Below are positions 2,488 to 18,587 of a stretch of 64,000 nucleotides of DNA, piece after piece (the first letter of the stretch is position 1; each line of letters starts with the position of its first letter). This DNA comes from Candidatus Dojkabacteria bacterium. GTDB lineage: Bacteria > Patescibacteriota > Dojkabacteria > J137. The notes beneath the pieces are model-generated. The model saw nothing but the letters and a program-made list of their open reading frames with translations. It did not search any database and had not been told where the DNA came from. The translations under genes and the position numbers were made by a program. The stretch is taken from positions 17,473 to 81,472 of the forward strand of contig JBGSZB010000036.1 in the NCBI GenBank assembly GCA_041750555.1, given 5' to 3'.

Positions 2488-2573
2488 TAAATGATTTGTA
2501 TACTATTGTTTTTAATAATGGTTGATATGAATAAGTAATAATGGAATAATAGTATGTTTAAATTTTTTAAAAT

Positions 2574-3518
2574 ATGAATAGTACATTAAGTAATAATCAA
2601 TTAATGCAACCACCACAAAATACACCTATGAATAATTCACTACCACCATTACCCCCAATAAATGAAGTTGTTAATCCAACTCCTGTGCCATTACCAACAG
2701 TAACAAATGTCGTAGAAAATCTAGAGCCTACGATTGCAAGGGTAGAGTTAAATGATAAAGTTAATGATAAACCATTAGAAGTTGAAAAGAAAAAGGTTAA
2801 TTCAAAGAATGCTAATACTATTATAATTGTGTTAGGAGTTATATTTGTAATAGTATTAATAATACTATCATTTCTATTAGGTAGATTATCAGCCCCAGTA
2901 ATAACTAAAACTATAGATAATACAGATAATCAAGATGAAGAAGTTGTAAGTGTATTTGATTCATCATTATGGTTAGCTAGAGCACAAAACGGTAGTGGTT
3001 CATATGAAGTAACTGATAATGCTTTAACTATGTCTCTTAAAACTAGTCTTTTAGAATCTGGAACAGCATTTGCAAGGTATGATTTAAAAGAAGAATTACC
3101 TACTAACTTTGATGTTTCAGTTACAATGAGTGACTATGTATTAGATAGCGCTGTTAGTTCATCACTAAATAGGTTAGTATTTGGATTTGATGCTAATGAT
3201 ACTAATTTTTTTAATATTAGGCTTGTAACAGATGCTAGTGGATCATATTTAGATAGTAGGTATGTATCAGATAGTGTTAATGAAACTAGTGAAAAAGTTG
3301 TAATAACAGGAACTCCAGAAATTACATTTAGTGCTAAAAAAACTAGCAATAGTGTTACACTAAGTTATTCTCTAGATGGAGCAACTGCAATAGTTATTAG
3401 AGATATAGAGAACTTTATTGATCTTTCATTAACACCTTCTCTTCAATTATATGCAAATGTTAACAATACAATAGCTGAAGAAATTGAGGCTAAGTATAGT
3501 GCTTGGAGTGTAGAATAG
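2574..3518 (+). CDS. membrane-anchored protein with Pro-rich N-terminus and extracytoplasmic domain
   Basis: Pro-rich N-terminus, a single hydrophobic helix (IIIVLGVIFVIVLIILSFLLG), then a ~200-aa Ser/Thr-rich domain, followed by an intrinsic terminator. Confidence 0.4.
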   Translation: MNSTLSNNQLMQPPQNTPMNNSLPPLPPINEVVNPTPVPLPTVTNVVENLEPTIARVELNDKVNDKPLEVEKKKVNSKNANTIIIVLGVIFVIVLIILSFLLGRLSAPVITKTIDNTDNQDEEVVSVFDSSLWLARAQNGSGSYEVTDNALTMSLKTSLLESGTAFARYDLKEELPTNFDVSVTMSDYVLDSAVSSSLNRLVFGFDANDTNFFNIRLVTDASGSYLDSRYVSDSVNETSEKVVITGTPEITFSAKKTSNSVTLSYSLDGATAIVIRDIENFIDLSLTPSLQLYANVNNTIAEEIEAKYSAWSVE

Positions 3519-3614
3519 ATATTTGATATAATTACAGAATGGAAAAGAATAAATTAACTAACAAATTTTTTATGATGTTTAACTATAAATAAAGGGGTTT
3601 AATTTTGTATATCT

Positions 3615-3640
3615 AAAACCCCTTTAAGGGGTTTTTTTAT
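3615..3640 (+). terminator. rho-independent terminator (aaaacccc-tttaa-ggggtttt followed by a T run)
   Basis: An 8-bp GC-containing stem, 5-nt loop and T-tract about 100 nt downstream of the 2574..3518 stop. Confidence 0.6.
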
Positions 3641-3742
3641 TGCTTTTTATATTTTATTTTAAAATTATCTTTATACTTTAAAGATTAAATATATTAAAGA
3701 GTAATATGTATTTTATTTAATTATTAAGTTATTATTAAAGAC

Positions 3743-5197
3743 ATGAACACATTCTATATTACAACACCAATATTTTATCCTACAGGAACACCACATATTG
3801 GCACGGCTTATACCGTTTTTATAGCTGATACATTAGCTAAATATTATGCTCAAAAATTAGGATCTGATAATGTTTTGTTTTTAACAGGAACTGATGAACA
3901 TGGAGGTAATATTGCTAAAAAAGCTAGTGAATTAGGAGTTACTCCAATTGAATATGTAAATGATTATGCAGAGCGTTACAAAAGGATATGGAGTGGTTTA
4001 AATATATCAAATTCATATTTTATTAGAACAACTAATCCTGAACATGAAGAATTTGCAAAAGAATTAATTCAAAAGTCTTTTGATAATGGAGATATATATG
4101 AAGGAACGTATGAGGGGTGGTATTGTGAGAGTTGTGAGAGTTACTATTCTGAAGAAGATTTAATTGATGGTAAATGTCCTAATCATCCAACTAAGTTACC
4201 AATATTTACTAAAGAAAAAAACTATTACTTTAAGTTATCAAAGTATTCTGATTGGTTATTAAATTACATTGAAGAAAATCCCGAATTTATTACTCCAATT
4301 AAATGGAGAGAATATGTTAAATCATTAATTAGGGAGAGATTAAAAGATATTCCAGTAACTAGAGCTAATGTTTCTTGGGGAATAGAAGTCCCATTTGATA
4401 AATCTCAAACAATATATGTTTGGTATGATGCACTACCTAACTATTTATCATATTTAAACTTTAAGGATAGTTTAGAAAAAGATTATTATAATAGATTCTG
4501 GGGTAACAGTGTACATGTAGTGGGTAAAGATATTATTAAATTTCATGCAATACTTTGGCCTGCAATGTTAAAGTCTGCAGGTTATCCAATATTTAAAAAA
4601 CTTTTAGTACATGGTTTCTTTACTGTTAATGGTTTAAAGATTGGTAAGAGTAATAACAATGCAATAGATCCCCTAGAGTTAGGTGAAAAATATACTAATG
4701 ATGCAGTTAGATATGCACTTTTATCTGAATTCCAAATAGGTAATGATGGAGATTTTAGTATTGAAAGATTAGAGTCTAAATACAATGGTGAATTAGGTAA
4801 TAACTTTGGTAATTTATTAAATAGAGTTATACATTTAGCTAATCTTAAAGATGTAAATCTTCATGAAGATATTGAGATTGATAAGGATGTAAGTACATAT
4901 ATATCTACTATTGAAAATGAATATATTAACAATATTGAAAGTTTTAAAATATTTGAAGCTATACAAAATGTATCTGAATTATGTAGTTTTGGTAATAAAT
5001 ATGTAAATGATAAAAAGCCTTGGGAAATAACAGATACTAATGAATTAAAAAGTGTATTAATAACTCTAAGAGTATTGCTAGAAAAAGTAATAGAGCTTTA
5101 TTCTCCAATAATACCTGATAGTAGTTTAAAAGCATCTAATGCACTAAAAAATCAAGAAAAGATTATTCTATTCCCTAAATTAGAATTAAAGAGTTAG
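3743..5197 (+). CDS. metG: methionyl-tRNA synthetase (short form, no C-terminal dimerisation domain)
   Basis: HIGH-type motif TPHIGTAYT, KMSKS-type motif KIGKSNNN, Zn-knuckle CESCESYY...CPNH, length 484 aa. Confidence 0.9.
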   Translation: MNTFYITTPIFYPTGTPHIGTAYTVFIADTLAKYYAQKLGSDNVLFLTGTDEHGGNIAKKASELGVTPIEYVNDYAERYKRIWSGLNISNSYFIRTTNPEHEEFAKELIQKSFDNGDIYEGTYEGWYCESCESYYSEEDLIDGKCPNHPTKLPIFTKEKNYYFKLSKYSDWLLNYIEENPEFITPIKWREYVKSLIRERLKDIPVTRANVSWGIEVPFDKSQTIYVWYDALPNYLSYLNFKDSLEKDYYNRFWGNSVHVVGKDIIKFHAILWPAMLKSAGYPIFKKLLVHGFFTVNGLKIGKSNNNAIDPLELGEKYTNDAVRYALLSEFQIGNDGDFSIERLESKYNGELGNNFGNLLNRVIHLANLKDVNLHEDIEIDKDVSTYISTIENEYINNIESFKIFEAIQNVSELCSFGNKYVNDKKPWEITDTNELKSVLITLRVLLEKVIELYSPIIPDSSLKASNALKNQEKIILFPKLELKS

Positions 5198-7017
5198 TTA
5201 TTTGAAGTATTAAGGGTTAATAGGTCATTTAAACTTACAGAGCTATTTAAATATTGCTCATAAGTTACAAATTTAACAGCTCCTAAATCTCTATCTGCTC
5301 TATAGTTATTAACTGAGTTTAGTAGTTCTTTAATAGAATCAATTTCTAAATCTAACCAATCAATATGTGATGAATATGATATTAATCTATCATACCCAAG
5401 AATTGTATTTAAAGGATATTGTTGTTCAAATATCTCAATTAATTTAGTAGCTTCTTGTGTATATCCATCTAAACCGTTATTAGGAATTTCAATAATATTA
5501 AGATATGTATTGTTAAATTCTTCCCTAACTATATTACTAAACTCATTAAAGTTATCTGTAGATATACCATTAGATATATTTTCTTTTAAAGGAATATAGC
5601 TTTGAACTTGGGTATCTAACTCCCAAGATTGTAAAACATCATTTTTACCTAATTTAACGCTTTCTCGGGCTGATGAATCATATACAAATCCTGATTCTAC
5701 TAAAGCTTGTAGTATATCGCTATTCATAAACCAACCACCACTTCTAAAGCCTTTAATACTATCTATTTCATAATCACTATACTTTTTAAATTGAGTTTTT
5801 AATTTATCAATAGACCAGTTTAAAAGAGTTTTAATCTCATCTTTTGAGTAGTTAGTAATTAATGTATCATAACCATTTTCTCCATTATCCCAAGTTTCCC
5901 CTTCATATTTTGCATTAATTCCAACCTCTTCAATTAAATCATGTTGCATATGTAAGTGTAGTGCTAAATCATCTCCTTTAGTTAATCTATCACTTACCCA
6001 ATCAGTTATTTCTTCTCTTTTAACTTCATTAGTTTTAATATATATGTATATTCTTGGATTAAAAAAGTGAGTTACATTAATACCATATTCACTTAAAGTA
6101 TTTTCTAAAATTTGAAATTGATTATTACTAGGTATTATTCCTTCATAATCAATACTCCAAGAGATATATAGTGGGTGGGTGTATATAAATGTTGAGGTAT
6201 TGGATTTGTATATTTGATTATTGTTTCTAACTATTAAGTAAACCTCATTAACACCATTTATTAATTTAGAGTTATCTAAAACAATATTGTTATTAAGTAA
6301 CTTAACTTTAGAATAGTCAGTAATATTATTGTTGTATATAGCCCATATATCACTATTGTTTAAATCAATAGTACTATTAACTCTTAAATTAATATCATTT
6401 AATGTTTTCTCATTTAAATTCCATAGTTTCTCACTAAATATATTAATTAGTGTTTGCTCTTCATAAGACAAATTAGAAAAAGATATTTCGCTTATTTCTT
6501 CTCTACTTAAGTTATCTCTATTAATTAAATATTCATTAATATTTGAAGTTCTATCTCCATAGTAAATATAGTAATTAGTAAAGTTATTATTTTTATTAAA
6601 TTTAATTATTGTATCAATATTATCCCGATTAAATATTTCATAACTTAAATATTGATAATTACTATTACTTAAGTTATACCCTATAATATTTATATCTAAT
6701 GCACTATCTAAACTCTTTTTATCTAAAACTAATTCAGCATGGTTTAATTTAAAATATACTTCACTATTACTACTTAATATCTCTCGTCTAAAGGGGGAAG
6801 AGTCACTTATCCAACTTAAACTATTATCATTTACTGATAAATTATCGGGAACTTGTGGTAATTGAGAATTAAGATATGAGAATATTAAATTAATTATTAA
6901 AAGTGTTAGAAATATTAATATTGAAATTAATATATATCTATTTCTCTTAACTACTAAGATCTTTTTAAGATTGTACTTTATTTTAAATTTTAAGTTATGC
7001 ATTAAATTTATAAGCAT
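5194..7017 (-). CDS. membrane-anchored secreted protein, possibly a divergent polysaccharide deacetylase (CE4-like) domain
   Basis: N-terminal TM helix. The C-terminal region has SIDYEG...HLHMQHD...FRSGGW, reminiscent of NodB motifs (TFDDG / HxxxH / RPPxG). The assignment is weak. Confidence 0.35.
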   Translation of the reverse strand: MLINLMHNLKFKIKYNLKKILVVKRNRYILISILIFLTLLIINLIFSYLNSQLPQVPDNLSVNDNSLSWISDSSPFRREILSSNSEVYFKLNHAELVLDKKSLDSALDINIIGYNLSNSNYQYLSYEIFNRDNIDTIIKFNKNNNFTNYYIYYGDRTSNINEYLINRDNLSREEISEISFSNLSYEEQTLINIFSEKLWNLNEKTLNDINLRVNSTIDLNNSDIWAIYNNNITDYSKVKLLNNNIVLDNSKLINGVNEVYLIVRNNNQIYKSNTSTFIYTHPLYISWSIDYEGIIPSNNQFQILENTLSEYGINVTHFFNPRIYIYIKTNEVKREEITDWVSDRLTKGDDLALHLHMQHDLIEEVGINAKYEGETWDNGENGYDTLITNYSKDEIKTLLNWSIDKLKTQFKKYSDYEIDSIKGFRSGGWFMNSDILQALVESGFVYDSSARESVKLGKNDVLQSWELDTQVQSYIPLKENISNGISTDNFNEFSNIVREEFNNTYLNIIEIPNNGLDGYTQEATKLIEIFEQQYPLNTILGYDRLISYSSHIDWLDLEIDSIKELLNSVNNYRADRDLGAVKFVTYEQYLNSSVSLNDLLTLNTSNN

Positions 7018-7154
7018 TTACTTTAGTATATGTTATTTAATTAATAAACTCTTAAGATTTTTTAGAAACATATATATTCCTGATTATATATATTTTTAGA
7101 ATATTTAATAATTCTGTAGTAATATTATTACACATAATTTATTACTTTTTTAAA

Positions 7155-8582
7155 ATGTTAAAGGTATACAATAGTTTAACTAAAACATTGGAAGAGTTTA
7201 ATCCAATGGTTGAAGGTAAGGTTAGCATGTATACTTGTGGTCCGACTGTATATAGTTATCCAACTATTGGGAATTGGAGAACATATATCTTCTCAGATGT
7301 TGTTAATAGAAGTTTAAGATACTTAGGGTATGATGTTTCATTTGTAATGAATTTAACTGATGTAGGGCATCTAACAGGGGATAATTTAGGTGATTCATCA
7401 AGTGGTGAGGATAGGTTAGAGAAGGCAGCTAAAAGAGAGAAAAAAAGCGCATGGGATATTGCTAAATTTTATTCTGATGATTTTGTTAATGGAGTAAATA
7501 GATTAAATATTTTAAATCCAATAATCTTTTGTAAGGCTACTGAACATATTCAAGAACAAATTGATTTAGTTAAAAAAATTGAGGAGAGAGGTTTTACATA
7601 CTCCACAACTGATGGAATATATTTTGATGTTAAAAAATATGAATCTAATGGAAACACTTATGGTGAATTATCTAACCTAGATCAAATTTTAGAAGGAGCT
7701 AGAGTTGAGATTAACCCAGAAAAAAAAGACCCAAGAGATTTTGCTTTATGGAAGTTTAGTCCTAGAGATTCTAAAAGAGATATGGAATGGGATTCTCCAT
7801 GGGGAATGGGTTTCCCAGGATGGCATATTGAATGTAGTGCTATGGGCATGAAGTATTTAGGAGAACAGATAGATTTGCATTTAGGAGGAGAGGATTTAAG
7901 ATCAACTCATCATCCTAATGAGATAGCTCAAAGTGAAGCTGCAACAGATAAGAAACCCTTTGTTAAGTATTGGATGCATGGAGCATTTCTTCAAGTTGAT
8001 GGTGGTAGAATGGGTAAAAGTTTAGGTAATGCATATACCTTATCAGATATTGATGAAAAAGGAATTAATCTAATAGCGCTAAGATATTTCTATTTCTCAT
8101 CTCACTACAGATCTAAACTTAATTTTACATGGGATGCACTAAAATCTAGTGAAACTACACTAAATAAACTAATTAATACTGTTAAAAGGTTATCTAGTGA
8201 AGTTGAGACTTTGCATAATATTGATTTAAATATTAATTTAGATTATCAAACTAAGTTTATACAGTATTTAGAGAATGACTTTGATATGCCAAAGGTATTA
8301 AGTTTAATGTGGGAGTTAATTAAAAGTGATTTATCATCTTCAACTAAATTAGCTACGTTATTAGATTTTGATCGTGTATTAGGTTTTAATTTAACTAATG
8401 TTTTAGATCAACCTAGTAGTATTGATATAAGTGATGAAGTTAAAACTCTTTTACTTGAAAGAGATGTAGCTAGAAAGAAAAAAGATTTTAATGAATCAGA
8501 TAGAATTAGAGATATATTATTTAATGAGTATCATATTAAAGTATATGATACTGATAAAGGACAAGAGATAGAGGAGGTTTAA
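7155..8582 (+). CDS. cysS: cysteinyl-tRNA synthetase
   Basis: CGPTVYSYPTIGNWRTY (HIGH-like), KMGKSLGN (KMSKS), WHIECSAM zinc site, 475 aa. Confidence 0.9.
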   Translation: MLKVYNSLTKTLEEFNPMVEGKVSMYTCGPTVYSYPTIGNWRTYIFSDVVNRSLRYLGYDVSFVMNLTDVGHLTGDNLGDSSSGEDRLEKAAKREKKSAWDIAKFYSDDFVNGVNRLNILNPIIFCKATEHIQEQIDLVKKIEERGFTYSTTDGIYFDVKKYESNGNTYGELSNLDQILEGARVEINPEKKDPRDFALWKFSPRDSKRDMEWDSPWGMGFPGWHIECSAMGMKYLGEQIDLHLGGEDLRSTHHPNEIAQSEAATDKKPFVKYWMHGAFLQVDGGRMGKSLGNAYTLSDIDEKGINLIALRYFYFSSHYRSKLNFTWDALKSSETTLNKLINTVKRLSSEVETLHNIDLNINLDYQTKFIQYLENDFDMPKVLSLMWELIKSDLSSSTKLATLLDFDRVLGFNLTNVLDQPSSIDISDEVKTLLLERDVARKKKDFNESDRIRDILFNEYHIKVYDTDKGQEIEEV

Positions 8583-8971
8583 GCCTCTATTGAGAATAGT
8601 CTATTTTTTACATCAGCTACATTTTTTAAAGTACTATCTGCATCTATAGTAATTTGATCTAATTCAATCTCTATTAATTCTTTAAAACTTGTACCAAAGA
8701 ATTCAATTATGCATGTAACTACATGTATAAGTCTAGGATCTCTTTGAAAAGTTTTTAAAAAAATACGTAGTAATTTTAAAAAGTTATCATCCAATTCAAA
8801 GTCTATAATATCTTCATATTCAAAAAGTTCACTTACAACCTCTAATCTTGAATTAATACCCTCTTTAAATGCTTCTAACGAATTGAATACTTGCCAATTT
8901 CTTAATAGAATAAGATCATATTCAAGGTTTTTATATGTTGTGAATAGAAACTCTCTATCATGTATTGCCAT
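8579..8971 (-). CDS. small acidic hypothetical protein, member A of a 4-gene tandem paralog array
   Basis: Shares the motif L..F...F..D.RL..VV.I with the ORFs at 8992..9363 and 9848..10240. Its stop codon overlaps the cysS stop (TTAA). Confidence 0.5.
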   Translation of the reverse strand: MAIHDREFLFTTYKNLEYDLILLRNWQVFNSLEAFKEGINSRLEVVSELFEYEDIIDFELDDNFLKLLRIFLKTFQRDPRLIHVVTCIIEFFGTSFKELIEIELDQITIDADSTLKNVADVKNRLFSIEA

Positions 8972-8991
8972 TTAAATATATAAACTCAGAT

Positions 8992-9363
8992 TTAAGCTTC
9001 TGTAGGGTAATATATTGATATAAGACTTCGTGCTCTAACTGCAGTTTCTCTTGAATTTTTTTCTATTTCTTGTAAATTTTCTCTAATAAAAGGTTTTACA
9101 TCTGCAGGACATAAAGCGTTTAAAACATAAACTACTTGAGTTAATTTTTCATCTGATCCAAATATCTCAAAAAAAAGAGATATGTATTTTAGATAAAATA
9201 TAAAGGCTTCTTCACTTTCTATTTTAATTCCTCTGCCTAAATACTGAACTTTATTAACAATACGTGCAGTAAATTCTTTACTATCTTCTAAAGTTCTAAG
9301 TATAATTAAATCATCACGAAGCTCGGCATGCGATTGATCAAAGTGATTAATTAATTTTGGCAT
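8992..9363 (-). CDS. small acidic hypothetical protein, paralog B
   Basis: YLKYISLFFEIFGSDEKLTQVVYVL aligns with paralog A (LLRIFLKTFQRDPRLIHVVTCII) and paralog D (LLALYLEVFKDDRRLTTVVEIIL). Confidence 0.5.
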   Translation of the reverse strand: MPKLINHFDQSHAELRDDLIILRTLEDSKEFTARIVNKVQYLGRGIKIESEEAFIFYLKYISLFFEIFGSDEKLTQVVYVLNALCPADVKPFIRENLQEIEKNSRETAVRARSLISIYYPTEA

Positions 9364-9403
9364 TCAATTTAAAATAATAAATATAAAGATATGATAATAC
9401 TAG

Positions 9404-9817
9404 TTAGCTTAATATATCAAGTATATAACTTATTATTAATAACCCTTCGTCACTTAATGGTTCAGATATTACTCCTATTAACTCTCTTAACCTAGATAAA
9501 TCATCACTGTTCGAAGTATTATTTTTAAAAATATTTATAGCCTCAATATTTTCTGGAGTTGATAGAGTAGTCTTAATGAATTCTAGAATTTCTTTAAAAT
9601 TATCATCAGCTTTAAAAGCTTTAATAATGAATATAACGTATAGAAGCTTTGTATAGACATCCTCTGTTGCAAGCAAGGTTTCAAACCCTTCTTTTATTCC
9701 TGCAAGCGATCTGTTTTGATACAATTTAATATCTGTTACTTTTACTTTCATATCAAGTTCCATAGAATCATCATTCATATTCATTCCTCTTCCTAATGGT
9801 TTATTTGGATCACCCAT
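9404..9817 (-). CDS. small acidic hypothetical protein, divergent member C of the array
   Basis: Same size, strand and spacing. Weaker similarity (LLYVIFIIKAFKADDNFKEILEFI). Confidence 0.4.
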   Translation of the reverse strand: MGDPNKPLGRGMNMNDDSMELDMKVKVTDIKLYQNRSLAGIKEGFETLLATEDVYTKLLYVIFIIKAFKADDNFKEILEFIKTTLSTPENIEAINIFKNNTSNSDDLSRLRELIGVISEPLSDEGLLIISYILDILS

Positions 9818-9847
9818 ATATTTAAATTAAAAGATTAAATAATATAC

Positions 9848-10240
9848 TTATTGTTCTTCTGAAAAACGTTTTCTTAAAAGATCATCTACCCGACCAAGTG
9901 TTGCTTGAGTATCCTGTTTAATATACAGCAGTTTTTGATGAATAAACTCTGAACATTCACTACACTCTGCTAATATAATCTCAACTACAGTTGTTAATCT
10001 TCTATCATCCTTAAATACTTCCAAGTAAAGAGCTAAAAGACTTAAAATATCATCTCTTCTACCTTCCATTGTCATTAGCATATTGTTTTTAGCTATAACT
10101 CCAAATCTAATTGCCTCTATGAATCTATCTCTTTCTAACACTTCATCCAATTTTTTAAGTTCTTCTAAATCAGCTATTACTCTAGCTTTGAGATCTCCTA
10201 TTGTAGTTTTTAAACCAATAAGTAAATTTTTATCTGGCAT
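9848..10240 (-). CDS. small acidic hypothetical protein, paralog D
   Basis: The motif is shared with paralogs A and B. Confidence 0.5.
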   Translation of the reverse strand: MPDKNLLIGLKTTIGDLKARVIADLEELKKLDEVLERDRFIEAIRFGVIAKNNMLMTMEGRRDDILSLLALYLEVFKDDRRLTTVVEIILAECSECSEFIHQKLLYIKQDTQATLGRVDDLLRKRFSEEQ

Positions 10241-10293
10241 AAAAAAGATATTTAACTATGTTGATATTAACACCAAATCATTAACTTATTCAA

Positions 10294-11259
10294 TTATTCA
10301 CAACTTTGTAGATACTTCAAACTAAAGCTAGATAAGTCTAATAGATTAATTACGCCATCGTTGTTAACATCTCTACTACCACAACTTTTAGTGTCAAGGG
10401 TTTCTACACACTCTTTAGAATATACTTTCATAAATTCAGTTAAATCTAGAGAATTAATAAACTGATCGTTATTAAAATCCATTGCACCACATAAAACATC
10501 TAAATTATTATCATTAATTAATACCTTAGATATCTCTACTGAAACATTAGCTCCTGTAGCAAAATTACCTGTATAACAAGCATCAATTCGGGAAGCTACA
10601 CTAATTAACTTGTTAGTACCAGTTTCTAAAATTGGACTACCACTATCACCAAAACATAATCCACCACTTTCTCCTCTAAAAGATATTGAATCTCCACCAA
10701 AAGATGTGCTTTCAACACAAAGAGTAGCGCTTTTCCTTAATGGACTTGAAGTTTCTAGAGAATCTTTACCATAACCTACAACTGTATAGTTACAAGAAGT
10801 TGATGCTGTAGCTACCTCTGCATATTGATCTAGTAATATATCTTCACTTAGAATAACAATTGAAATATCACTTGAGATATTTCCATCTAAAATCCAATTA
10901 GGATGAATAAATATCTCTTTAGATCTAATATACTTAGTTTTATCATAGTCAAAGTTTCCTAATTGAAAAAATACTTCACTTGTATCATCAACACAGTGAG
11001 AAGCAGTAACTACAGTATTTTTGTTAATTAATGCTCCTCCACATAGCTCAAACTCAGTAAACGATATCTCACTAACAATATATCCAACAAATGGATAACC
11101 ACTTTCTAATTTACCGCCAAATATAGCGCCAGAATCAAGTGGTGCATTAGATTTTCTTAATCTTTCAGTAACTCCTATTAAAAGAAATATACCAAAAAGA
11201 ATAAAAGTTAATATTAAAACTCTTTTAATTAATTCTTTTTTTGCTAAATTATCATTCAT
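10294..11259 (-). CDS. secreted trypsin-like (S1) serine protease with two C-terminal dockerin-type repeats
   Basis: N-terminal signal/anchor. His site VVTASHC and Ser site GDSGSP. Two DxNxDGxINxLDL repeats (DFNNDQFINSLDL, DVNNDGVINLLDL). Confidence 0.75.
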   Translation of the reverse strand: MNDNLAKKELIKRVLILTFILFGIFLLIGVTERLRKSNAPLDSGAIFGGKLESGYPFVGYIVSEISFTEFELCGGALINKNTVVTASHCVDDTSEVFFQLGNFDYDKTKYIRSKEIFIHPNWILDGNISSDISIVILSEDILLDQYAEVATASTSCNYTVVGYGKDSLETSSPLRKSATLCVESTSFGGDSISFRGESGGLCFGDSGSPILETGTNKLISVASRIDACYTGNFATGANVSVEISKVLINDNNLDVLCGAMDFNNDQFINSLDLTEFMKVYSKECVETLDTKSCGSRDVNNDGVINLLDLSSFSLKYLQSCE

Positions 11260-11260
11260 A

Positions 11261-11893
11261 TTAAATAGGGTTTCTTTTTCTTCTAAAAAGTATAAGAGTC
11301 ATTGAAATAATAAAAAACGATATAGAGATAATTAACCCTATACTACTAAATATTAAAACATCATCGTTTGTATCTATATTAAATCCTCCAATAGTAACTA
11401 TATCTTTTTCATCTTCCTTTACAATCTTATCCTCTAAACTATCTAAATCTTCTCTTAAATCTTCTCCATTAGAATAAAAACTACCATTAGCTTTAACAAT
11501 TGAAAACTTATCGCTATCTAATACTTTAAAAGTTAGAAATCCTAGAGATTCATTTAAAGTTAATTCACTATCCTTAACGAGTGTTGCACAAACCCTATTA
11601 TCAGTAAAATATTCTCCATTTGTACAATCAGGATTTACAATTACAAAATCTTTAGCATTATATATTTCAAAATCAGTAATCCTGATCCCTGTAGAAATGA
11701 TGCTAATCTTTACACCATTCTCACGATCTTCAGGAGTTGCTTTTAACTCTAAGGTATAGCTTTCTCCATTAGTAAACGATGTATAGTTGTTAACTAAGTA
11801 ATATGCTTTTGCATTAAAGGTAATATTTGAGAAGATACTAAACATTAAAAATGTAATTAGTAATATTTTTCTATGTAATTTTATAGAATTCAT
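11261..11893 (-). CDS. surface protein with signal peptide and C-terminal TM anchor plus basic tail
   Basis: MNSIKLHRKILLITFLMFSIFSN signal. C-terminal hydrophobic segment followed by RRKRNPI. Confidence 0.4.
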   Translation of the reverse strand: MNSIKLHRKILLITFLMFSIFSNITFNAKAYYLVNNYTSFTNGESYTLELKATPEDRENGVKISIISTGIRITDFEIYNAKDFVIVNPDCTNGEYFTDNRVCATLVKDSELTLNESLGFLTFKVLDSDKFSIVKANGSFYSNGEDLREDLDSLEDKIVKEDEKDIVTIGGFNIDTNDDVLIFSSIGLIISISFFIISMTLILFRRKRNPI

Positions 11894-11978
11894 TAAATTT
11901 AGTTAACAAGTCATTCTAATATATTACAAGTGAAGTTTAAATAACTAATTAATAACCAATAATTAACTCTAATAATTA

Positions 11979-13433
11979 TTAGTTATTTAATATTACTTTT
12001 GAGGCTTTAAAGAGAGTATCTTCATTAAACATATTTGCCATTAATTGAATTCCTATTGGTAAACCTTTACTATCTACACCAAGAGGTAAACTAATTGCAG
12101 GAATTCCAGCTAAATTAGCAGTAACAGTAAATATATCTACTAAATACATTTGAATAGGATCATTAATCTTTTCTCCAATTTTAAATGCAGTAGTTGGAGA
12201 TACAGGAGAAATTATTACATCTACATCTTTAAATGCATTTTTAAATTCATTTTTAATCTTTTCGCGAACAAGACTTGCTCTTTTATAGTATTGATCTGAG
12301 TAACCCTTACTTAGTGCAAATGTTCCAATCATTATTCTTCTCTTTACTTCTTCTTCAAAATATTTACTTCTACCCTCACTCAAGTTTTCTTCATAATTAT
12401 CGCTCTCTATTGGTCCATATCTTACACCATCATATCTTGCTCTATTAGAAGATATTTCAGATGGAACTAATACATAGTAACAAGCTAGAGCGTATTTAGA
12501 TGATGGAAGAGATATATCTTTAATTTTAAATCCTTTATCTTTTAATTCTTTAATTTTTAAATCAATAGCCTCCTTAATTTCAGGATTTAATCCATCAATA
12601 AAAAACTCAGGAGCTACTCCAAATGTAATGTTTTTTAATTCAGATTCTTCTATTTTATTTAATGAATCTAAATAGTTAATTGTTTCAGTTTCTGAAGTTG
12701 TTGCATCATTAATATCTTTTCCAGCCATAATGCTCTCTAAAAGAGCCATATCTTCTAAGTTTCTTGTAAAGAATCCTGGTGTATCAAATGAAGAAGCCAT
12801 AGCACCTATTCCATATCTAGAATTCCTACCGTAAGTTGGTTTTAAACCTAAAAGTCCTGTAAAAGATGCAGGTAATCGAACTGATCCCCCTGTATCTGTA
12901 CCTAATGAAAAGAAGCCTACACCACTTAATAGTCCACTAGCACTACCTGAACTTGATCCTCCAGGTGTTCTTTCTAAATCTAGAGGATGTTTAGTTGCTC
13001 CATAACCAGAATTTTCTCCACTACTTCCAAACCCCCAAGGATCACAATTAGCTTTAGCTATTAATATACCTCCTTGATCTAAACATTTTTGAACTACAGT
13101 TGAAGTATATACAGCAATAAAGTCACTCATATATTTAGAACCAAATGTAGTTCTAATTCCATCCACCATGTATAAATCTTTAACAGTGAATGGTATTCCA
13201 AGTAAACTTTTATTTTCTAAATCAGTGTCCCCATTTTGAATTTTCAAATCTAATTCTAAAGCTCTATCAAGCGCACTATCAATTATTGTTATAAAAGCAT
13301 TAGTGTCGCTATTAACACTATGAGCTCTCTCTAAATGCTCTTTAATTAAATCAACAACCCTTAATTCTTTATTTCTTATTCTTTTAACTGTATTAGTTAT
13401 TGTATCTATATTTGGTATTTCTAATTTATTCAT
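11979..13433 (-). CDS. gatA: Asp-tRNA(Asn)/Glu-tRNA(Gln) amidotransferase subunit A
   Basis: Amidase signature GGSSSGSASGLLSGVGFFSLGTDTGGSVRLPASFTGLLGLKPTYGRNSRYG. 484 aa. Confidence 0.85.
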   Translation of the reverse strand: MNKLEIPNIDTITNTVKRIRNKELRVVDLIKEHLERAHSVNSDTNAFITIIDSALDRALELDLKIQNGDTDLENKSLLGIPFTVKDLYMVDGIRTTFGSKYMSDFIAVYTSTVVQKCLDQGGILIAKANCDPWGFGSSGENSGYGATKHPLDLERTPGGSSSGSASGLLSGVGFFSLGTDTGGSVRLPASFTGLLGLKPTYGRNSRYGIGAMASSFDTPGFFTRNLEDMALLESIMAGKDINDATTSETETINYLDSLNKIEESELKNITFGVAPEFFIDGLNPEIKEAIDLKIKELKDKGFKIKDISLPSSKYALACYYVLVPSEISSNRARYDGVRYGPIESDNYEENLSEGRSKYFEEEVKRRIMIGTFALSKGYSDQYYKRASLVREKIKNEFKNAFKDVDVIISPVSPTTAFKIGEKINDPIQMYLVDIFTVTANLAGIPAISLPLGVDSKGLPIGIQLMANMFNEDTLFKASKVILNN

Positions 13434-13643
13434 AGTTTTATTAATTTAATGCAATTATATCTTTTACTATTCTTATTGAGAAGTGTTGTAATATATTTTA
13501 AATTTTAGTACAATAACAGAATTGTTTACAGAAATGAATAACAAATGAATATATTAAATGTCTTTACAACCTTAACTATTTTAAATCTCATTATTATTGA
13601 GAGATTTATTAGGAGGTAAAGATATATATTTTTAAATATTAGA

Positions 13644-13667
13644 AACCTCCTAAAAGGAGGTTTTTTT
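13644..13667 (+). promoter_or_regulatory. hairpin aacctcct-aaa-aggaggtt plus a T run, whose 3' arm is the AGGAGG Shine-Dalgarno of the downstream gene
   Basis: A perfect 8-bp stem sequesters AAGGAGGT 8 nt upstream of the ATG at 13670, followed by TTTTTTT. It is either an SD-occluding regulatory hairpin or a terminator. Confidence 0.4.
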
Positions 13668-13669
13668 AT

Positions 13670-14221
13670 ATGTACTTAAAAAGTAAAGTTGAGACAAAGG
13701 GCTATAGTGAAAAATTGCTTGAAGTAAAAAGAATATATGAGCGTGTTATGGTCCCACGCAAAAATATTATTTATGGTATCCAACCAATAAATCATAGAGA
13801 AGGAGATGAGAGTGAGTCACAATTTTCTAACGAAAGAATTAGATCAATTTTCAAAAATCTTAAAACCTATGGTATAGCTATAATTCCTCCAATTACTTTA
13901 GTTATATTTAGGGGTACACCAGTAATCGTAGATGGTCATCATAGATATAGAGCTATTGGCAAGTATAATGCTTGGTTAAGGCAAAATGGAGAAGAAGAAA
14001 TTACACATATTCCTGTAGATATATTAGATTATGAAGATTATAAGAAGGTAATGCAGTTAGATGAAAGTAACTCAGATGATATGTTTCTGTATCTTGTAGA
14101 ATGTGCAGCAATAAGCTTTATTTCATTAATTGAGCAAACTAAGACCGATTTAGAAAAACCTTTAATAATGCCCGTTCTTCCATTTAGAGAGAATATTGGA
14201 ATAGGAAATGATGAGCAATAG
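13670..14221 (+). CDS. ParB/sulfiredoxin-like nuclease-domain protein
   Basis: GTPVIVDGHHRYRAIG matches the ParB N-terminal domain motif (DGhHR). 183 aa. Confidence 0.5.
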   Translation: MYLKSKVETKGYSEKLLEVKRIYERVMVPRKNIIYGIQPINHREGDESESQFSNERIRSIFKNLKTYGIAIIPPITLVIFRGTPVIVDGHHRYRAIGKYNAWLRQNGEEEITHIPVDILDYEDYKKVMQLDESNSDDMFLYLVECAAISFISLIEQTKTDLEKPLIMPVLPFRENIGIGNDEQ

Positions 14222-14241
14222 TGATGATATAATTTATCTAT

Positions 14242-14484
14242 ATGGAAAATCAATGTATTGAAGATAAATTAAACAGTTATAGAGTAAAAACTTTCAGGGA
14301 GTTAACAACTCTTGTTTGGAGGATTGCTGATAGATATGCTTATTATGAACTCATAATGAGGGAAATTGAAAATGGTTTTTCTATACTAGAGGCAGAAAAC
14401 CAAGTAAACAAGATCTTTGCAATAAGGAGCTTTGAGGATTTTTTAAATTTTGAGTCTGAAAAACTTGGGATACTCGAATCCTAA
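14242..14484 (+). CDS. small hypothetical protein
   Basis: 80-aa ORF directly downstream of the ParB-like gene. Confidence 0.3.
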   Translation: MENQCIEDKLNSYRVKTFRELTTLVWRIADRYAYYELIMREIENGFSILEAENQVNKIFAIRSFEDFLNFESEKLGILES

Positions 14485-15933
14485 TTAATCAACCCCTAAT
14501 ATATATTTATATACATTGTAAACACCATTAGATTCTGTATCTGAAGTTCTATCATCTAATAGAATGTATGATGATTTACCATTAATAGTGATATATGTAT
14601 TTAAATCAATAATATATTCTTGAGAAATAACTTCATTAAGATTTAAACCATCATAATCACTAATCCATAAAGATTTAGTTTCATTATCATTACTACTTAA
14701 AATCATAATACTATTACCATTAGGAGTATATTTAACAAACAAAGTATCTAAATTAATATCAAAACTAGATTCAAAATCAGTATATGTTTTAGAATTACCT
14801 ACAGTTTCTTCAAACTTAATACTTAAGTATTTATTATCTTCTTGTTTAAATAATAAATTTAAAAAGTTAGGAGATATATCTACTAATTCATAATTAAAAT
14901 CAAAAACTCTAGTAAATGATTTATCTAAATCAATAAATATATATTTAGAATTAGTTTTTAAAAGAATAATTTCATTCTCATCTCTAGAAATATATATATT
15001 ATTTACACTATCATCTAATTCAATTAAATCTTCTAAATCTAATACTTCAGCAGCTTGTTTATTAGAATATTCAAATATCTTATTTAAATCTTTTCTGTAG
15101 TAATAAAGAGCTTGACTGTTATTTGCAAATATAGAAGAGGTTTTTAATGAATTGTATTCTATAACACTTAAACTTTTAGAAGATAATTCGTAATAACTTA
15201 AAAGATTATTTGATAATAAAATTAACCCTTCTGAGTTTTGAAACCAACTAAACTTATCTGGATAAAATCCTAAAGTATCGTTAAGTTTAGTTAATGTTGA
15301 AGTTGATATATTTAAATAATAAAGTTCTTTTGTTGTTTTTAAATCAATAATTAAATTATTATTGTTATTTGAAACACTTATTGAATAATCATCTAGTTTT
15401 TTAATAAACTCACTATCTAATTTAATAATTTGAGATGGAGTATTGTTACTAAAATTTAAAAATCCTCTATTTAAACCTAATCTCCAAATACCAATATCTT
15501 CAACCTCTTTAGAATCCTTAATTAAATAATAAAGATATTCACTATTATCTGGTACATATATTTTATCAACTCTAGAATCAGTAGTTTTTTCAAATAATAC
15601 TCTTACAGGAGATAATTGAGCTACAATATCTTCTACAACACCACTTCTTAAATTTACAATTCTTTCCCAATCTCTATACCCATCTTTTTTTAAAGTTACT
15701 TTTGTTATTCCAGGAGTTAACCATTCAACTCTATTTTCATTCTTACTAACCTCCACATCGTTAATATATATACTTACATCTGTGGGAGAACTATTAACTC
15801 TTAAAATACTTGTATTGGTAACAACTCCATTATCATCTATTCTATTACCTTGTGCTAAGGTAATTACGTATATAGATACAGCAGAAAACAGTAATAGCGA
15901 TAAAATTGTAGATAATAATCTTCTCTTCATCAT
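14485..15933 (-). CDS. secreted PEGA-domain protein
   Basis: Signal peptide. VNSSPTDVSIYINDVEVS...LTPGITKVTLKKDGYRDWERIV fits the PEGA domain. Long Asn/Ser-rich C-terminal region. Confidence 0.5.
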   Translation of the reverse strand: MMKRRLLSTILSLLLFSAVSIYVITLAQGNRIDDNGVVTNTSILRVNSSPTDVSIYINDVEVSKNENRVEWLTPGITKVTLKKDGYRDWERIVNLRSGVVEDIVAQLSPVRVLFEKTTDSRVDKIYVPDNSEYLYYLIKDSKEVEDIGIWRLGLNRGFLNFSNNTPSQIIKLDSEFIKKLDDYSISVSNNNNNLIIDLKTTKELYYLNISTSTLTKLNDTLGFYPDKFSWFQNSEGLILLSNNLLSYYELSSKSLSVIEYNSLKTSSIFANNSQALYYYRKDLNKIFEYSNKQAAEVLDLEDLIELDDSVNNIYISRDENEIILLKTNSKYIFIDLDKSFTRVFDFNYELVDISPNFLNLLFKQEDNKYLSIKFEETVGNSKTYTDFESSFDINLDTLFVKYTPNGNSIMILSSNDNETKSLWISDYDGLNLNEVISQEYIIDLNTYITINGKSSYILLDDRTSDTESNGVYNVYKYILGVD

Positions 15934-16025
15934 GGTAAGTATATCACTATAATTTTATGGTTTGTAGTATCATTTTAGAACATTTTTTATATATAATTAC
16001 CAAGCTGTAGTAATATATCATTAGT

Positions 16026-17147
16026 ATGAAAAAAGTTTTAATATTAGTCCCATATTCTTACCCATCTAAATGTGGTGTATGGAGTAGAGCATACTTAGAT
16101 GCTAAATATCTTAAATCAAAAGGATTTGATGTAACAATATTTAGTTCTAATATATTAAAAGGAACTAATGAAAAATTACCTAAAAGTGATGAAATAGATG
16201 GAATAAAGATACTGAGATTTAAAGTATTGTTTAAACTAGGTGGCTCTTCAATGTTTTGGTTTTTTGCTATAAAGTTTTTAAGATTAAATCCAAGTATAGT
16301 TCATACACATGGATTTAGACACCCTCATTCTTTAATGAGTTTAATATTAGGAAAATTAACATTTAAAAAAGTATTATTAACAACTCATGCTCCATTTGAA
16401 AAAGATAATAACAGATCAATATTTTTAAAAATTATAGATACTCTTTACGATTTAATAATTGCAAGAATTGAATTAAAGTTATACAACAATGTAATTAGAA
16501 TATCTAATTGGGAAGTACCGTATTTAAAAAAGTTAGGAGTTAAAAATAGTGTTTTTATACCTAATGGAGTTAATGAAATATTTAATGAAGGAGTAACTTC
16601 TCCTTCTAAAAGTGATGTTCCATTTAAAAGAGTAATATTTATGGGGAGGTTAGATCCTGTAAAGAGATTAGAATGGATAATTAATGTTGCAGAGCAAATT
16701 GAAACTTCTAGTAATAATGTTTTAAAAGATATTAAGTTCTTAATTAGGGGAAGTTTAAATGGTTATGATTCTTTAGAATCTAAAAGTAGTAATTTAACCC
16801 TAGATAAAACTTCGTATGACTATAGTGAATTTATAAGAGAATTAGATACAAGTGATATTTATATATTACCAAGCATTAGAGAAGCTCTTCCATATACATT
16901 ATTAGAGGCAATGTCTAGAGGTAAAATTGTAATTACATCTAATAGCTTAGGGGGTTTAGAAGTTGTAAAAAATGGTATTAATGGATTTATTGTTTCAAAT
17001 GAAACAGAGCTTAGGGAAGTTTTAGAATATATTTATTCTAATTGGGATAAAATGTATAAGATAAGGACAGAAGCTATAAATAGAGCTTTAGAGTATAATA
17101 TTAATCTAGTTAATGAAAAACTTGGTAAAATATACAAACAATTTTAA
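16026..17147 (+). CDS. glycosyltransferase family 4 (GT-B, group 1)
   Basis: C-terminal EALPYTLLEAMSRGKIVITSN motif typical of GT4. 373 aa. Confidence 0.7.
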   Translation: MKKVLILVPYSYPSKCGVWSRAYLDAKYLKSKGFDVTIFSSNILKGTNEKLPKSDEIDGIKILRFKVLFKLGGSSMFWFFAIKFLRLNPSIVHTHGFRHPHSLMSLILGKLTFKKVLLTTHAPFEKDNNRSIFLKIIDTLYDLIIARIELKLYNNVIRISNWEVPYLKKLGVKNSVFIPNGVNEIFNEGVTSPSKSDVPFKRVIFMGRLDPVKRLEWIINVAEQIETSSNNVLKDIKFLIRGSLNGYDSLESKSSNLTLDKTSYDYSEFIRELDTSDIYILPSIREALPYTLLEAMSRGKIVITSNSLGGLEVVKNGINGFIVSNETELREVLEYIYSNWDKMYKIRTEAINRALEYNINLVNEKLGKIYKQF

Positions 17148-17163
17148 ATATTAGAAATTTTTT

Positions 17164-18545: not shown

Positions 18546-18587
18546 CTTATATTCAATTATTAATATTGAATACTTTATCTATTAATA

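What the first reader, a model, noticed from the sequence alone, without database searches (positions are those of the whole stretch)
8579..10240. Array of four tandem paralogous small acidic proteins between cysS and a dockerin-bearing protease
Four co-oriented ORFs of 123-137 aa are separated by only 20-40 bp. Three clearly share a motif block (LLRIFLKTFQRDPRLIHVVTCII, YLKYISLFFEIFGSDEKLTQVVYVL, LLALYLEVFKDDRRLTTVVEIIL) and the fourth is a diverged member. They lack signal peptides, are predicted helical, and matched no family I know. Tandem arrays of diverged small cytoplasmic paralogs are typical of immunity/antitoxin-type or other diversifying gene families. Here they sit directly downstream of a secreted trypsin-like protease with dockerin repeats and a surface protein, in the same transcriptional direction.
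Basis: seen in the sequence. Interest (0 to 1): 0.55.

Follow-up and report, generated by a model that had tools for sequence, protein, structure and literature searches.

The report
Swappable orphan small-protein gene array
Four small, helical, cytoplasmic proteins of a family found in only one narrow group of ultra-small (CPR/Patescibacteria) bacteria are encoded in a tandem array that is gained, lost and swapped between lineages; they are real and fast-evolving, but their function is still unknown and they are not tied to the neighbouring protease.

Summary

- **Paralogy:** A, B and D are demonstrable paralogues (hhalign P 5e-5 to 6e-4). C shares only a 19-32-residue motif (P 0.05-0.19) and a similar helix order.
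- **Homologues:** no known family, solved structure or viral protein matches. Among about 15 billion proteins, the only homologues are orthologues in one sister lineage.
- **No link to the protease:** seven more distant relatives keep the gatA-anchor-protease operon directly against convergent cysS, with no array. The array is a lineage-specific insertion, not an obligate partner of the protease.
- **Variable content:** the sister genome has C-B-A but lacks D, as a clean indel of about 400 bp. A third contig is a recombinant carrying a different first gene.
- **Divergence:** four-fold synonymous sites differ at 4/89 positions in the array against 400/951 in flanking genes. This points to recent exchange.
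- **Selection:** ω is about 0.42 in the array against 0.09 or less in the flanks. ω is significantly below 1, so constraint is relaxed and positive selection is not shown.

An immunity-type binding role remains an inference. Interest is moderate to low.

The parts
9848..10240 (-). Gene D (130 aa): first gene of the array and a paralogue of A and B. It is present in this genome but absent from the sister lineage L092.
   Evidence: ORF. Coding statistics. hhalign to A gives P 1.3e-4 and to B P 5e-5. A clean indel of about 400 bp against L092. AF2 model with six helices, pLDDT 65.
9404..9817 (-). Gene C (137 aa): an all-alpha protein. Its membership of the A/B/D family is unproven; it shares only the motif FKxDDxFxxILEFI.
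   Evidence: P 0.05-0.19. The orthologue P0020 is 77% identical. AF2 model pLDDT 78.5, pTM 0.73, seven helices.
8992..9363 (-). Gene B (123 aa): a paralogue of A and D.
   Evidence: The orthologue in L092 is 80.5% identical.
8579..8971 (-). Gene A (130 aa): a paralogue of B and D and the last gene of the array. Its stop codon overlaps the cysS stop by 4 bp, tail to tail.
   Evidence: The orthologue in L092 is 77% identical.
9971..10039 (-). Family motif in D (aa 68-90, LLALYLEVFKDDRRLTTVVEIIL), on helices 3 and 4 of the model. The equivalent blocks are 8705-8773 in A, 9121-9195 in B, and the weaker one at 9572-9646 in C.
   Evidence: Alignments. Coordinates.
10250..10293 (-). A 44-nt element directly after the protease stop codon. 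It is 100% identical in contig L087 and partly conserved in L092. The variable cassette region starts immediately after it. By eye it reads TTGAAT-N18-TAATAT with an upstream TG, which resembles a promoter; this is an inference only.
   Evidence: The consensus promoter scan did not call it and is uninformative in this AT-rich DNA.
10294..11259 (-). Upstream neighbour: a membrane-anchored or secreted trypsin-like protease with a C-terminal dockerin. It is conserved in relatives that lack the array.
   Evidence: Pfam hits. Hydropathy. Homologues and their contexts.
11261..11893 (-). Upstream neighbour: a 210-aa protein with an N-terminal signal and a C-terminal TM anchor. It is always paired with the protease in relatives.
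7155..8582 (+). Convergent cysS, the other border of the insertion site.

Best explanation
What is shown:
1. The four ORFs are real protein-coding genes. They form a lineage-restricted accessory cassette array inserted at the tail-to-tail junction between a conserved gatA / anchor protein / trypsin-dockerin protease operon and cysS. The host is one genus-level clade of a low-GC (about 26%) Patescibacteria (CPR) bacterium.
2. A, B and D are old paralogues (25-32% identity) of a previously undescribed all-alpha family. The proteins are about 130 aa with six helices, give only weak helical-repeat-like fold resemblance, and carry a motif h-h-x-x-F-x-x-D-x-[RK]-L-x-x-V-V. C is either an extremely diverged member or an unrelated helical protein recruited into the array.
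3. The array behaves as an exchangeable module. Its gene content differs among all three known haplotypes.
4. Its synonymous-site divergence between two lineages is at least 5-10 times lower than that of flanking genes. That indicates recent transfer by recombination anchored in the conserved flanks.
5. Its proteins change much faster relative to synonymous change (omega about 0.4 against 0.09 or less) while the reading frames are preserved.

What is inferred: the products are cytoplasmic, acidic protein-binding modules used in some conflict or interaction. The most likely roles are orphan immunity-type neutralisers of foreign toxins or phage factors. Different alleles and paralogues would recognise different partners, and turnover by recombination would supply variety. 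They are not dedicated partners of the adjacent protease. They may be read through from the protease operon or transcribed from the conserved 44-nt element upstream of the first gene.
For: Coding:
- Codon statistics match housekeeping genes.
- The three orthologues keep identical lengths, and the 1239-nt C-B-A block aligns without a single indel.
- The probability of staying stop-free under neutral substitution is about 0.08 per gene, about 6e-4 jointly.
- ML omega is 0.42, and the likelihood-ratio test against omega=1 gives p=2e-4.

Paralogy.

Orphan status:
- The word-index searches with D and C found only each query itself and, for C, P0020.
- The exhaustive search of 1.84 billion representatives with the A/B/D profile returned only three clusters, those of A, D and a 123-aa B-type protein.
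- There are no Pfam, NCBIfam, PADLOC or PHROGs hits.
- There is no PDB sequence hit and no Foldseek PDB or BFVD hit better than E 0.4.
- There are no viral contigs.

Insertion: the order GT-PEGA-...-gatA-p210-protease, then convergent cysS-o607-metS, is conserved in seven distinct relatives. The protease and cysS are 12-143 bp apart, or separated by one unrelated gene, and none has the array.

Variable content:
- L092 has C'-B'-A' only.
- L087 follows L092 at about 270 informative sites, then the window at 23 consecutive sites, then runs into a novel ORF.

Recent exchange:
- Four-fold sites differ at 4/89 in the array against 400/951 in the flanks, Fisher p=7e-15.
- ML dS is 0.28 against 1.6 or more (saturated) in the flanks.
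- The array spacers are 39/40 and 19/20 identical, whereas flanking intergenic DNA is heavily diverged and gapped.

Fast protein evolution:
- The Nd:Sd ratio in the array against the flanks gives Fisher p=4e-7.
- Substitutions are spread evenly over codon positions.

Binding-module inference: both AF2 models are helix-hairpin stacks, and their weak best matches are TPR, HEAT, ARM and designed helical-repeat proteins. The proteins are acidic and have no export signal.
Against: - No toxin, secretion system, recombinase, phage or plasmid gene lies in the neighbourhood, and the rest of the window is housekeeping.
- No immunity, antitoxin or defence family matches.
- Overall omega is below 1, so diversifying selection is not demonstrated. 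Site-level tests are impossible with two sequences.
- The low dS rests on one genome pair.
- The third haplotype is a 1.6-kb metagenomic contig that could in principle be misassembled.
- The functional part of the statement is inference by analogy only.
Confidence: 0.4

Rival explanations
1. These are young orphan genes drifting under relaxed constraint. They would be a lineage-specific family of small proteins with a marginal or dispensable cellular role and no conflict function. They would sit at a permissive tail-to-tail intergenic site, and copy-number changes and recombination would be incidental.
For: - The family is restricted to one narrow clade.
- omega is elevated but below 1, with no evidence of positive selection.
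- D can be absent with the rest of the locus left intact.
- No partner genes are present.
- No fold or family resemblance was found.
Against: - A, B and D diverged to about 30% identity yet keep length, helix pattern and motif, so the family has been maintained through long divergence.
- The frames are kept open with zero indels.
- omega is significantly below 1.
- The array seems to have been exchanged between lineages and retained afterwards. That is easier to explain if it confers some benefit.
Confidence: 0.3
2. These are protease-linked accessory proteins. They would act as cytoplasmic inhibitors or chaperones, in the manner of staphostatin or a pro-peptide, that hold the co-transcribed trypsin-like protease inactive or export-competent before secretion.
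For: - D starts 53 bp downstream of the protease stop on the same strand.
- No terminator-like site is predicted anywhere in the array.
- The proteins are small, acidic and cytoplasmic.
- The L087 recombination tract includes the dockerin-coding 3' end of the protease.
Against: - Seven relatives carry an orthologous protease (40-50% identity) and its anchor partner with no array and no detectable homologue of it in the locus.
- D, the gene nearest the protease, is dispensable in L092.
- The predicted fold is all-alpha, unlike staphostatins, which are beta-barrels (this last point is from my own knowledge).
- Four paralogues for one protease is not parsimonious.
Confidence: 0.08
3. These are exported effector or surface-interaction proteins of an episymbiont. 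They would leave the cell by a non-classical route and act on a host cell, and their variability would reflect host adaptation.
For: - The array shows accessory, variable, fast-evolving behaviour.
- Its neighbours are cell-surface proteins: the anchor protein, the dockerin protease and a PEGA protein.
- A, B and D share a C-terminal tail [FY]-[SP]-x-E-[AQ] that could be a recognition tag.
Against: - No signal peptide or TM segment is present.
- No secretion-system genes were found in the parts of the window examined.
- The C-terminal motif is short and is not shared by C.
Confidence: 0.1
4. This is not a biological feature: the ORFs are chance open frames or pseudogenised remnants.
For: Shuffles of this AT-rich 1.66-kb region occasionally give stop-free runs of more than 100 codons (95th percentile 101, maximum 202). 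The NG86 omega confidence interval includes 1.
Against: - Four ORFs tile 95% of the region on one strand with housekeeping-like codon statistics.
- Paralogy is detectable at the protein level.
- The orthologous ORFs are intact and of identical length.
- The neutral simulation gives about 6e-4.
- ML omega is below 1 at p=2e-4.
Confidence: 0.02

Closest known systems
Orphan immunity-gene arrays of polymorphic-toxin systems and acquired interbacterial defence clusters (Zhang/Aravind-type Imm arrays; Ross et al. 2019, as cited in PMC13622651)
   Same: Both are tandem, co-oriented arrays of small cytoplasmic, often acidic proteins. Both consist of diverged paralogues with variable copy number between close relatives, show horizontal exchange, and evolve fast at the protein level.
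   Different: - No adjacent toxin gene and no recombinase or mobile element.
- No match to any Imm, antitoxin or defence model.
- The array sits in a housekeeping region.
- Neutralising activity is untested.
Staphostatin- or Spi-type intracellular inhibitors encoded downstream of secreted proteases
   Same: A small cytoplasmic protein gene lies directly downstream of, and co-oriented with, a secreted protease gene, with no terminator-like site predicted in between.
   Different: - The array does not co-occur with the protease across relatives.
- The predicted fold is all-alpha rather than beta-barrel.
- There are four genes rather than one.
Integron gene-cassette arrays
   Same: Both have short, co-oriented, promoter-less cassettes packed head to tail. 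Cassette content differs between relatives, and variability begins at a fixed point downstream of a conserved element.
   Different: - No integrase was found in the ORFs scanned.
- The spacers are only 20-40 bp, with no attC-like inverted repeats.
- The cassettes are paralogues of each other.
Small alpha-solenoid (TPR, HEAT or ARM-like) protein-binding modules
   Same: The AF2 models are stacks of antiparallel helices, and their best, non-significant, Foldseek matches are TPR, HEAT, ARM and designed helical-repeat proteins.
   Different: E-values are 0.6-4 and TM-scores 0.2-0.47. There is no sequence repeat signature and no Pfam TPR or HEAT hit.
Lineage-specific paralogous families of small helical proteins that evolve by recombination (for example the Borrelia paralogous gene families)
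   Same: Both are tandem paralogues that are all-helical, restricted to one lineage, and diversified by gene gain, loss and recombination. A BBK01 family-12 chain appears among the weak fold matches.
   Different: The Borrelia proteins are plasmid-borne surface lipoproteins. These proteins are chromosomal and have no export signal. No homology was detected.

Membership tests
Polymorphic-toxin immunity / orphan immunity array | Match to a known immunity (Imm, SUKH, CdiI and similar) or antitoxin family | tested here: not met
   No hit at or above the curated cut-off in Pfam, NCBIfam or PADLOC. The best is bDLD2 at E 0.07.
Polymorphic-toxin immunity / orphan immunity array | Adjacent toxin gene with a variable C-terminal domain, or location in a mobile defence island with a recombinase | tested here: not met
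   The neighbours are cysS, a conserved S1 protease, an anchor protein and gatA. Every other window ORF scanned that matched a Pfam family is a housekeeping or ordinary cellular gene.
Polymorphic-toxin immunity / orphan immunity array | Tandem diverged paralogues with presence/absence variation and horizontal exchange between strains | tested here: met
   Paralogy. D indel and alternative first gene. Low neutral-site divergence.
Polymorphic-toxin immunity / orphan immunity array | Binds and neutralises a cognate toxin | not testable with these tools
   This needs co-expression or binding assays, or complex prediction.
Staphostatin-like co-transcribed protease inhibitor | Gene directly downstream of, and co-oriented with, the protease gene | tested here: met
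   A 53-bp gap on the same strand, with no terminator-like site.
Staphostatin-like co-transcribed protease inhibitor | Co-conservation with the protease across genomes | tested here: not met
   Seven relatives carry the orthologous protease with no array.
Integron cassette array | attC recombination sites (imperfect inverted repeats) between cassettes, and an intI integrase | tested here: not met
   The spacers are 20-40 bp and no structured inverted or direct repeats were found. No integrase appeared among the ORFs scanned; not every ORF in the window was scanned.
Diversity-generating retroelement target | Template/variable repeat pair, a nearby reverse transcriptase, and adenine-specific substitutions | tested here: not met
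   No repeat pair. The substitution spectrum is not adenine-specific: A>G 21, G>A 19, T>A 18, T>C 14, C>T 14. No reverse transcriptase appeared among the ORFs scanned.
TPR/HEAT-like helical-repeat proteins | Significant structural or profile similarity to a helical-repeat family | tested here: inconclusive
A/B/D family (defined here): membership of gene C | Statistically significant sequence or profile similarity to A, B or D | tested here: inconclusive
   Leave-one-out E is 0.12. hhalign P is 0.19, 0.076 and 0.046 for different profiles. The motif position and helix order agree.

The most novel reading that the evidence does not exclude
The array could be a new class of exchangeable 'orphan immunity' or anti-host-defence cassettes in episymbiotic Patescibacteria. 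On this reading they are small helical binding proteins that neutralise toxins or defence effectors delivered by host bacteria or competitors. They would be swapped between epibiont lineages by homologous recombination anchored in conserved housekeeping flanks, with no mobile-element machinery.
Probability: 0.15. Interest if true: 0.7.

Novelty: new member of a known kind. Interest (0 to 1): 0.3.

Why it matters
If the functional inference holds, these cassettes would offer a handle on how genome-reduced CPR epibionts cope with attack from hosts or competitors, an area with almost no molecular data.

Even without a known function, the locus is a clean, datable example of recombinational exchange of an accessory module between diverged Patescibacteria lineages. 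Neutral divergence is about ten-fold lower than in the flanks and one breakpoint is mapped. The locus also adds a new orphan all-alpha family.

As it stands, this is one more lineage-specific hypothetical-protein family, of which CPR genomes hold many. The immediate impact is therefore modest.

Tried and rejected
1. **Known families.** Scans of Pfam, NCBIfam, PADLOC and PHROGs gave only sub-threshold noise such as USP8_dimer, SecB and bDLD2.
2. **Homologue searches.**
   - The word-index search with D found only itself.
   - The exhaustive profile search found only the family's own three clusters.
   - The search with C found a single orthologue, which proved the key lead.
3. **Synteny through cysS.** I fetched 80 genome loci. 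The best cysS match was 62% identical, and there was no shared neighbourhood and no homologue of the array. Synteny was only recovered through the protease homologues.
4. **Fold searches.**
   - Foldseek against PDB and BFVD gave nothing significant for either model.
   - A profile search of PDB sequences gave only noise, ribosomal protein S8 at E 0.5.
5. **Viral origin.** Two IMG/VR scans found no relative.
6. **Metagenome DNA scans.** Scans for the conserved 44-nt element core and for a conserved stretch of B both found nothing.
7. **Promoter and terminator scan.** It was uninformative in 26% GC DNA, with 35 promoter-like sites against 26 expected.
8. **Integron, DGR or DNA-level tandem-repeat structure.** None was found.
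9. **Positive selection.** NG86 suggested omega of about 0.6-1.05. An ML codon model that accounts for the AT-biased codon frequencies gives omega 0.42, significantly below 1. I therefore dropped any claim of positive selection.
10. **Weak window hits to the family profile.** The ORFs at 33712 and 38486 were rejected. The first is a DUF1801 protein and both had E above 0.005.
11. **Cohesin identity of the 210-aa anchor protein.** It has no Pfam or PDB sequence support.
12. **Looking up the NCBI record through protein A.** The look-up failed.
Full report
**1. Observation**

The window contains four minus-strand ORFs:
- A, 8579-8971, 130 aa
- B, 8992-9363, 123 aa
- C, 9404-9817, 137 aa
- D, 9848-10240, 130 aa

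They are transcribed in the order D, C, B, A. The spacers are 30, 40 and 20 bp.

Upstream on the same strand lie three genes:
- a protease with Pfam Trypsin (2e-19) and Dockerin_1 (1.6e-6) hits and an N-terminal hydrophobic anchor;
- a 210-aa protein with an N-terminal signal and a C-terminal TM segment;
- a gatA-type amidase.

cysS is convergent and overlaps the stop codon of A by 4 bp.

The four proteins are acidic, with pI 4.5-5.4. They have no hydrophobic segment that could serve as a signal peptide or TM helix.

The ORFs are real genes.
- They cover 95% of the region on one strand.
- Their in-frame codon log-likelihood (0.52-0.62 bits per codon, negative in both other frames) and GC1>GC2>GC3 profile match cysS, metS and gatA.
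- Their AT-rich leaders without a Shine-Dalgarno sequence look like those of every other gene checked in this genome.

**2. Paralogy**

- Leave-one-out profile searches against all 80 ORFs of the window recover A, B and D as the top non-training hit (E 1e-5, 4e-7 and 5e-10). C scores E 0.12 and is not the top hit.
- With orthologues added, pairwise hhalign gives A-B P=6e-4, A-D 1.3e-4 and B-D 5e-5.
- C against the five-sequence A/B/D profile gives P=0.076, over only the motif region.
- The AF2 models are all-alpha. D has pLDDT 65 and pTM 0.60 with six helices. C has pLDDT 78.5 and pTM 0.73 with seven helices.
- In both models the motif sits on the third helix, the turn and the fourth helix. 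C has one extra C-terminal helix.

So three genes are paralogues beyond chance. The fourth is plausible but unproven.

**3. What it is not**

- No Pfam, NCBIfam, PADLOC or PHROGs family reaches threshold.
- A profile search of PDB sequences gives only noise.
- Foldseek of both models against PDB, and of the D model against BFVD, gives nothing better than E 0.4. The weak top matches are TPR, HEAT, ARM and designed helical repeats.
- There are no relatives on viral contigs.
- There are no attC-like or other structured repeats and no DNA-level tandem repeat.
- Apart from a few ORFs with no Pfam match, the ORFs scanned in the rest of the window are housekeeping or ordinary cellular genes: aaRS genes, EF-P, Mur and Ddl ligases, RadA, transketolase and ABC transporters.
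- No toxin, secretion system or mobile-element gene was seen among them.

**4. Distribution**

- The organism is a Patescibacteria/CPR bacterium with about 26% GC. The closest cysS among one genome for each of about 186,000 species is 62% identical, and those loci share no neighbourhood with the window.
- All four proteins are singletons at 90% identity.
- An exhaustive HMMER search of the A/B/D profile against 1.84 billion representatives returned only the three clusters that hold A, D and a 123-aa B-type protein.
- A search with C found one 77%-identical protein, P0020.

Searching with the protease opened up the context. The gene order GT-PEGA-...-gatA-anchor-protease, then convergent cysS-o607-metS, is conserved in seven distinct relatives whose proteases are 40-50% identical (L082/83/84, L085, L086, L088, L089, L090, L091).
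- In five of them the protease and cysS are only 12-143 bp apart.
- In the other two a single unrelated gene intervenes (Peptidase_S51 or Inositol_P).
- None has the array or any detectable homologue of it in the locus.

The array is therefore an insertion specific to one shallow clade. The protease and its anchor partner function elsewhere without it.

**5. The sister lineage and the evolutionary signature**

P0020 lies on a 70.9-kb contig (L092) with the same locus but only three array genes, C', B' and A'.

Amino-acid identity:

| Gene(s) | Identity |
|---|---|
| C | 77% |
| B | 80.5% |
| A | 77% |
| Neighbouring genes | 60-88% |

D is missing as a clean indel of about 400 bp. The indel starts right after a conserved 44-nt element downstream of the protease stop and ends at D's stop codon.

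The C-B-A block (1239 nt) aligns without a single gap, and its two spacers are 39/40 and 19/20 identical. Flanking intergenic DNA is heavily diverged and gapped.

Divergence and selection measures, window against L092:

| Measure | Array (C, B, A) | Flanking genes |
|---|---|---|
| Substitutions at codon positions 1/2/3 | 13/23/17, 13/16/11, 14/11/23 | about 3-fold excess at position 3 |
| Four-fold sites differing | 4/89 | 400/951 (Fisher p=7e-15) |
| NG86 dS | 0.17 | 0.79 |
| NG86 omega (95% CI) | 0.74 (0.51-1.09) | 0.20 |
| GY94/F3x4 ML dS | 0.28 | 1.6 to saturated |
| GY94/F3x4 ML omega | 0.42 (LRT against 1, p=2e-4) | 0.005-0.09 |

Nd:Sd in the array against the flanks gives Fisher p=4e-7. 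A neutral simulation with the observed substitution spectrum keeps each ORF stop-free only about 8% of the time, about 6e-4 jointly.

Read together:
- The genes are maintained as coding sequences under weak purifying selection.
- Their proteins change much faster per synonymous change than their neighbours do.
- The block shares a far more recent common ancestor between the two lineages than the surrounding chromosome does. That means it was exchanged by recombination.
- Positive selection is not demonstrated.

**6. Direct evidence of recombination and a third haplotype**

A 1.6-kb contig (L087) is 98% identical to L092 across the anchor and protease genes.
- It follows L092 at about 270 informative sites.
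- From position 1399 it switches to the window's allele at 23 consecutive informative sites. It is 100% identical to the window over about 110 nt of the protease 3' end plus the 44-nt element.
- It then breaks abruptly, at the same point as the D indel, into a different ORF: MAGLDRNFVENSKNRLGRELETLKESPLFQNDGDFENSIR....
- The N-terminus of that ORF resembles A only weakly (shuffle p about 0.01).

The first slot of the array thus exists in three states: D, empty, or 'E'. The caveat is that L087 is a short metagenomic contig. A chimera cannot be fully excluded, although its 3' part matches neither known sequence.

**7. Mechanism**

Shown:
- This is an accessory, exchangeable cassette array at a tail-to-tail junction.
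- It is not coupled to the protease.
- No terminator-like site is predicted between the protease and D or within the array, so read-through from the protease operon is possible.
- By eye, the conserved 44-nt element reads TTGAAT-N18-TAATAT with an upstream TG. It might be a promoter. The consensus scan neither calls it nor is informative in this composition.

Inferred:
- Small, acidic, cytoplasmic helix-stack proteins that are variable in copy number and exchanged between lineages are most simply binding or neutralising modules in some conflict. Orphan immunity-type proteins are the nearest analogy.
- The main rival is a dispensable orphan family drifting under relaxed constraint.
- Protease-inhibitor and exported-effector readings are less likely, for the reasons given under the rival explanations.

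**8. Comparison with known systems, and verdict**

The array behaves like orphan immunity-gene arrays in its tandem diverged paralogues, presence/absence variation and horizontal exchange. It fails the membership tests that could be run here: there is no Imm, antitoxin or defence family match, no toxin gene and no mobile element.

It is not an integron array, a DGR target or a staphostatin-type inhibitor.

It is best filed as a new orphan protein family forming a lineage-specific variable accessory array. That is a known kind of thing, and a common one in CPR genomes.

The most notable result is the evolutionary signature: neutral divergence about ten-fold lower than the flanks, with a mapped recombination breakpoint. 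Interest is moderate to low (0.3).

Noticed in passing
window 10294-11893 (minus strand); L082-L092: The dockerin-bearing trypsin-like protease is always paired, in every relative, with an upstream protein of about 205 aa that has a signal peptide and a C-terminal TM anchor. That partner could be the cell-surface, cohesin-like docking protein for the dockerin. No Pfam or PDB sequence similarity to cohesin was found.
   Followed up: partly
window 13670-14484 (plus strand); L082 3719-5681; L085 643-3834; L092 5843-6565: There is a second variable islet in the same conserved neighbourhood, between PEGA and gatA. The window has a 183-aa ORF containing a DGHHR motif, which from my own knowledge recalls ParB/Srx-like domains, plus an 80-aa ORF. 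L092 has an unrelated 240-aa gene there. More distant relatives carry tandem runs of ORFs of about 173-183 aa. The window ORFs have no Pfam hit and no homologues in the relatives' loci.
   Followed up: partly
window 26890-29175 (minus strand): Three adjacent, similar-sized ORFs of 271, 262 and 264 aa lie here, and at least the first two carry an N-terminal HTH_3 (XRE-type) domain. This looks like another tandem paralogue set.
   Followed up: no
window 8579-8582; L085 6572-6575; L086 3456-3459: Where the array is absent, the protease and cysS coding regions overlap tail to tail by 4 bp, as called in L085 and L086. In the window, gene A overlaps cysS in the same way. The insertion therefore restored the same compact tail-to-tail arrangement.
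   Followed up: no
L092 3690-4325 compared with window 15934-16025: L092 carries an extra 211-aa gene between the glycosyltransferase and the PEGA protein, where the window has only a 92-bp spacer. This is another small-gene indel between the two lineages.
   Followed up: no
window 2500-19000 compared with L092: Synonymous sites of ordinary genes are saturated between the two lineages (ML dS 1.6 to effectively infinite) even though amino-acid identity is 72-88%. NG86 and ML estimates of omega differ about two-fold for the array in this genome, whose GC3 is about 0.1-0.2. Simple counting methods are unreliable here.
   Followed up: yes
window 52639-55947 (minus strand): A 1102-aa protein has weak Pectinesterase, PKD/Ig-like and SdrD_B domain hits. 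It is probably a large surface protein of this CPR bacterium.
   Followed up: no
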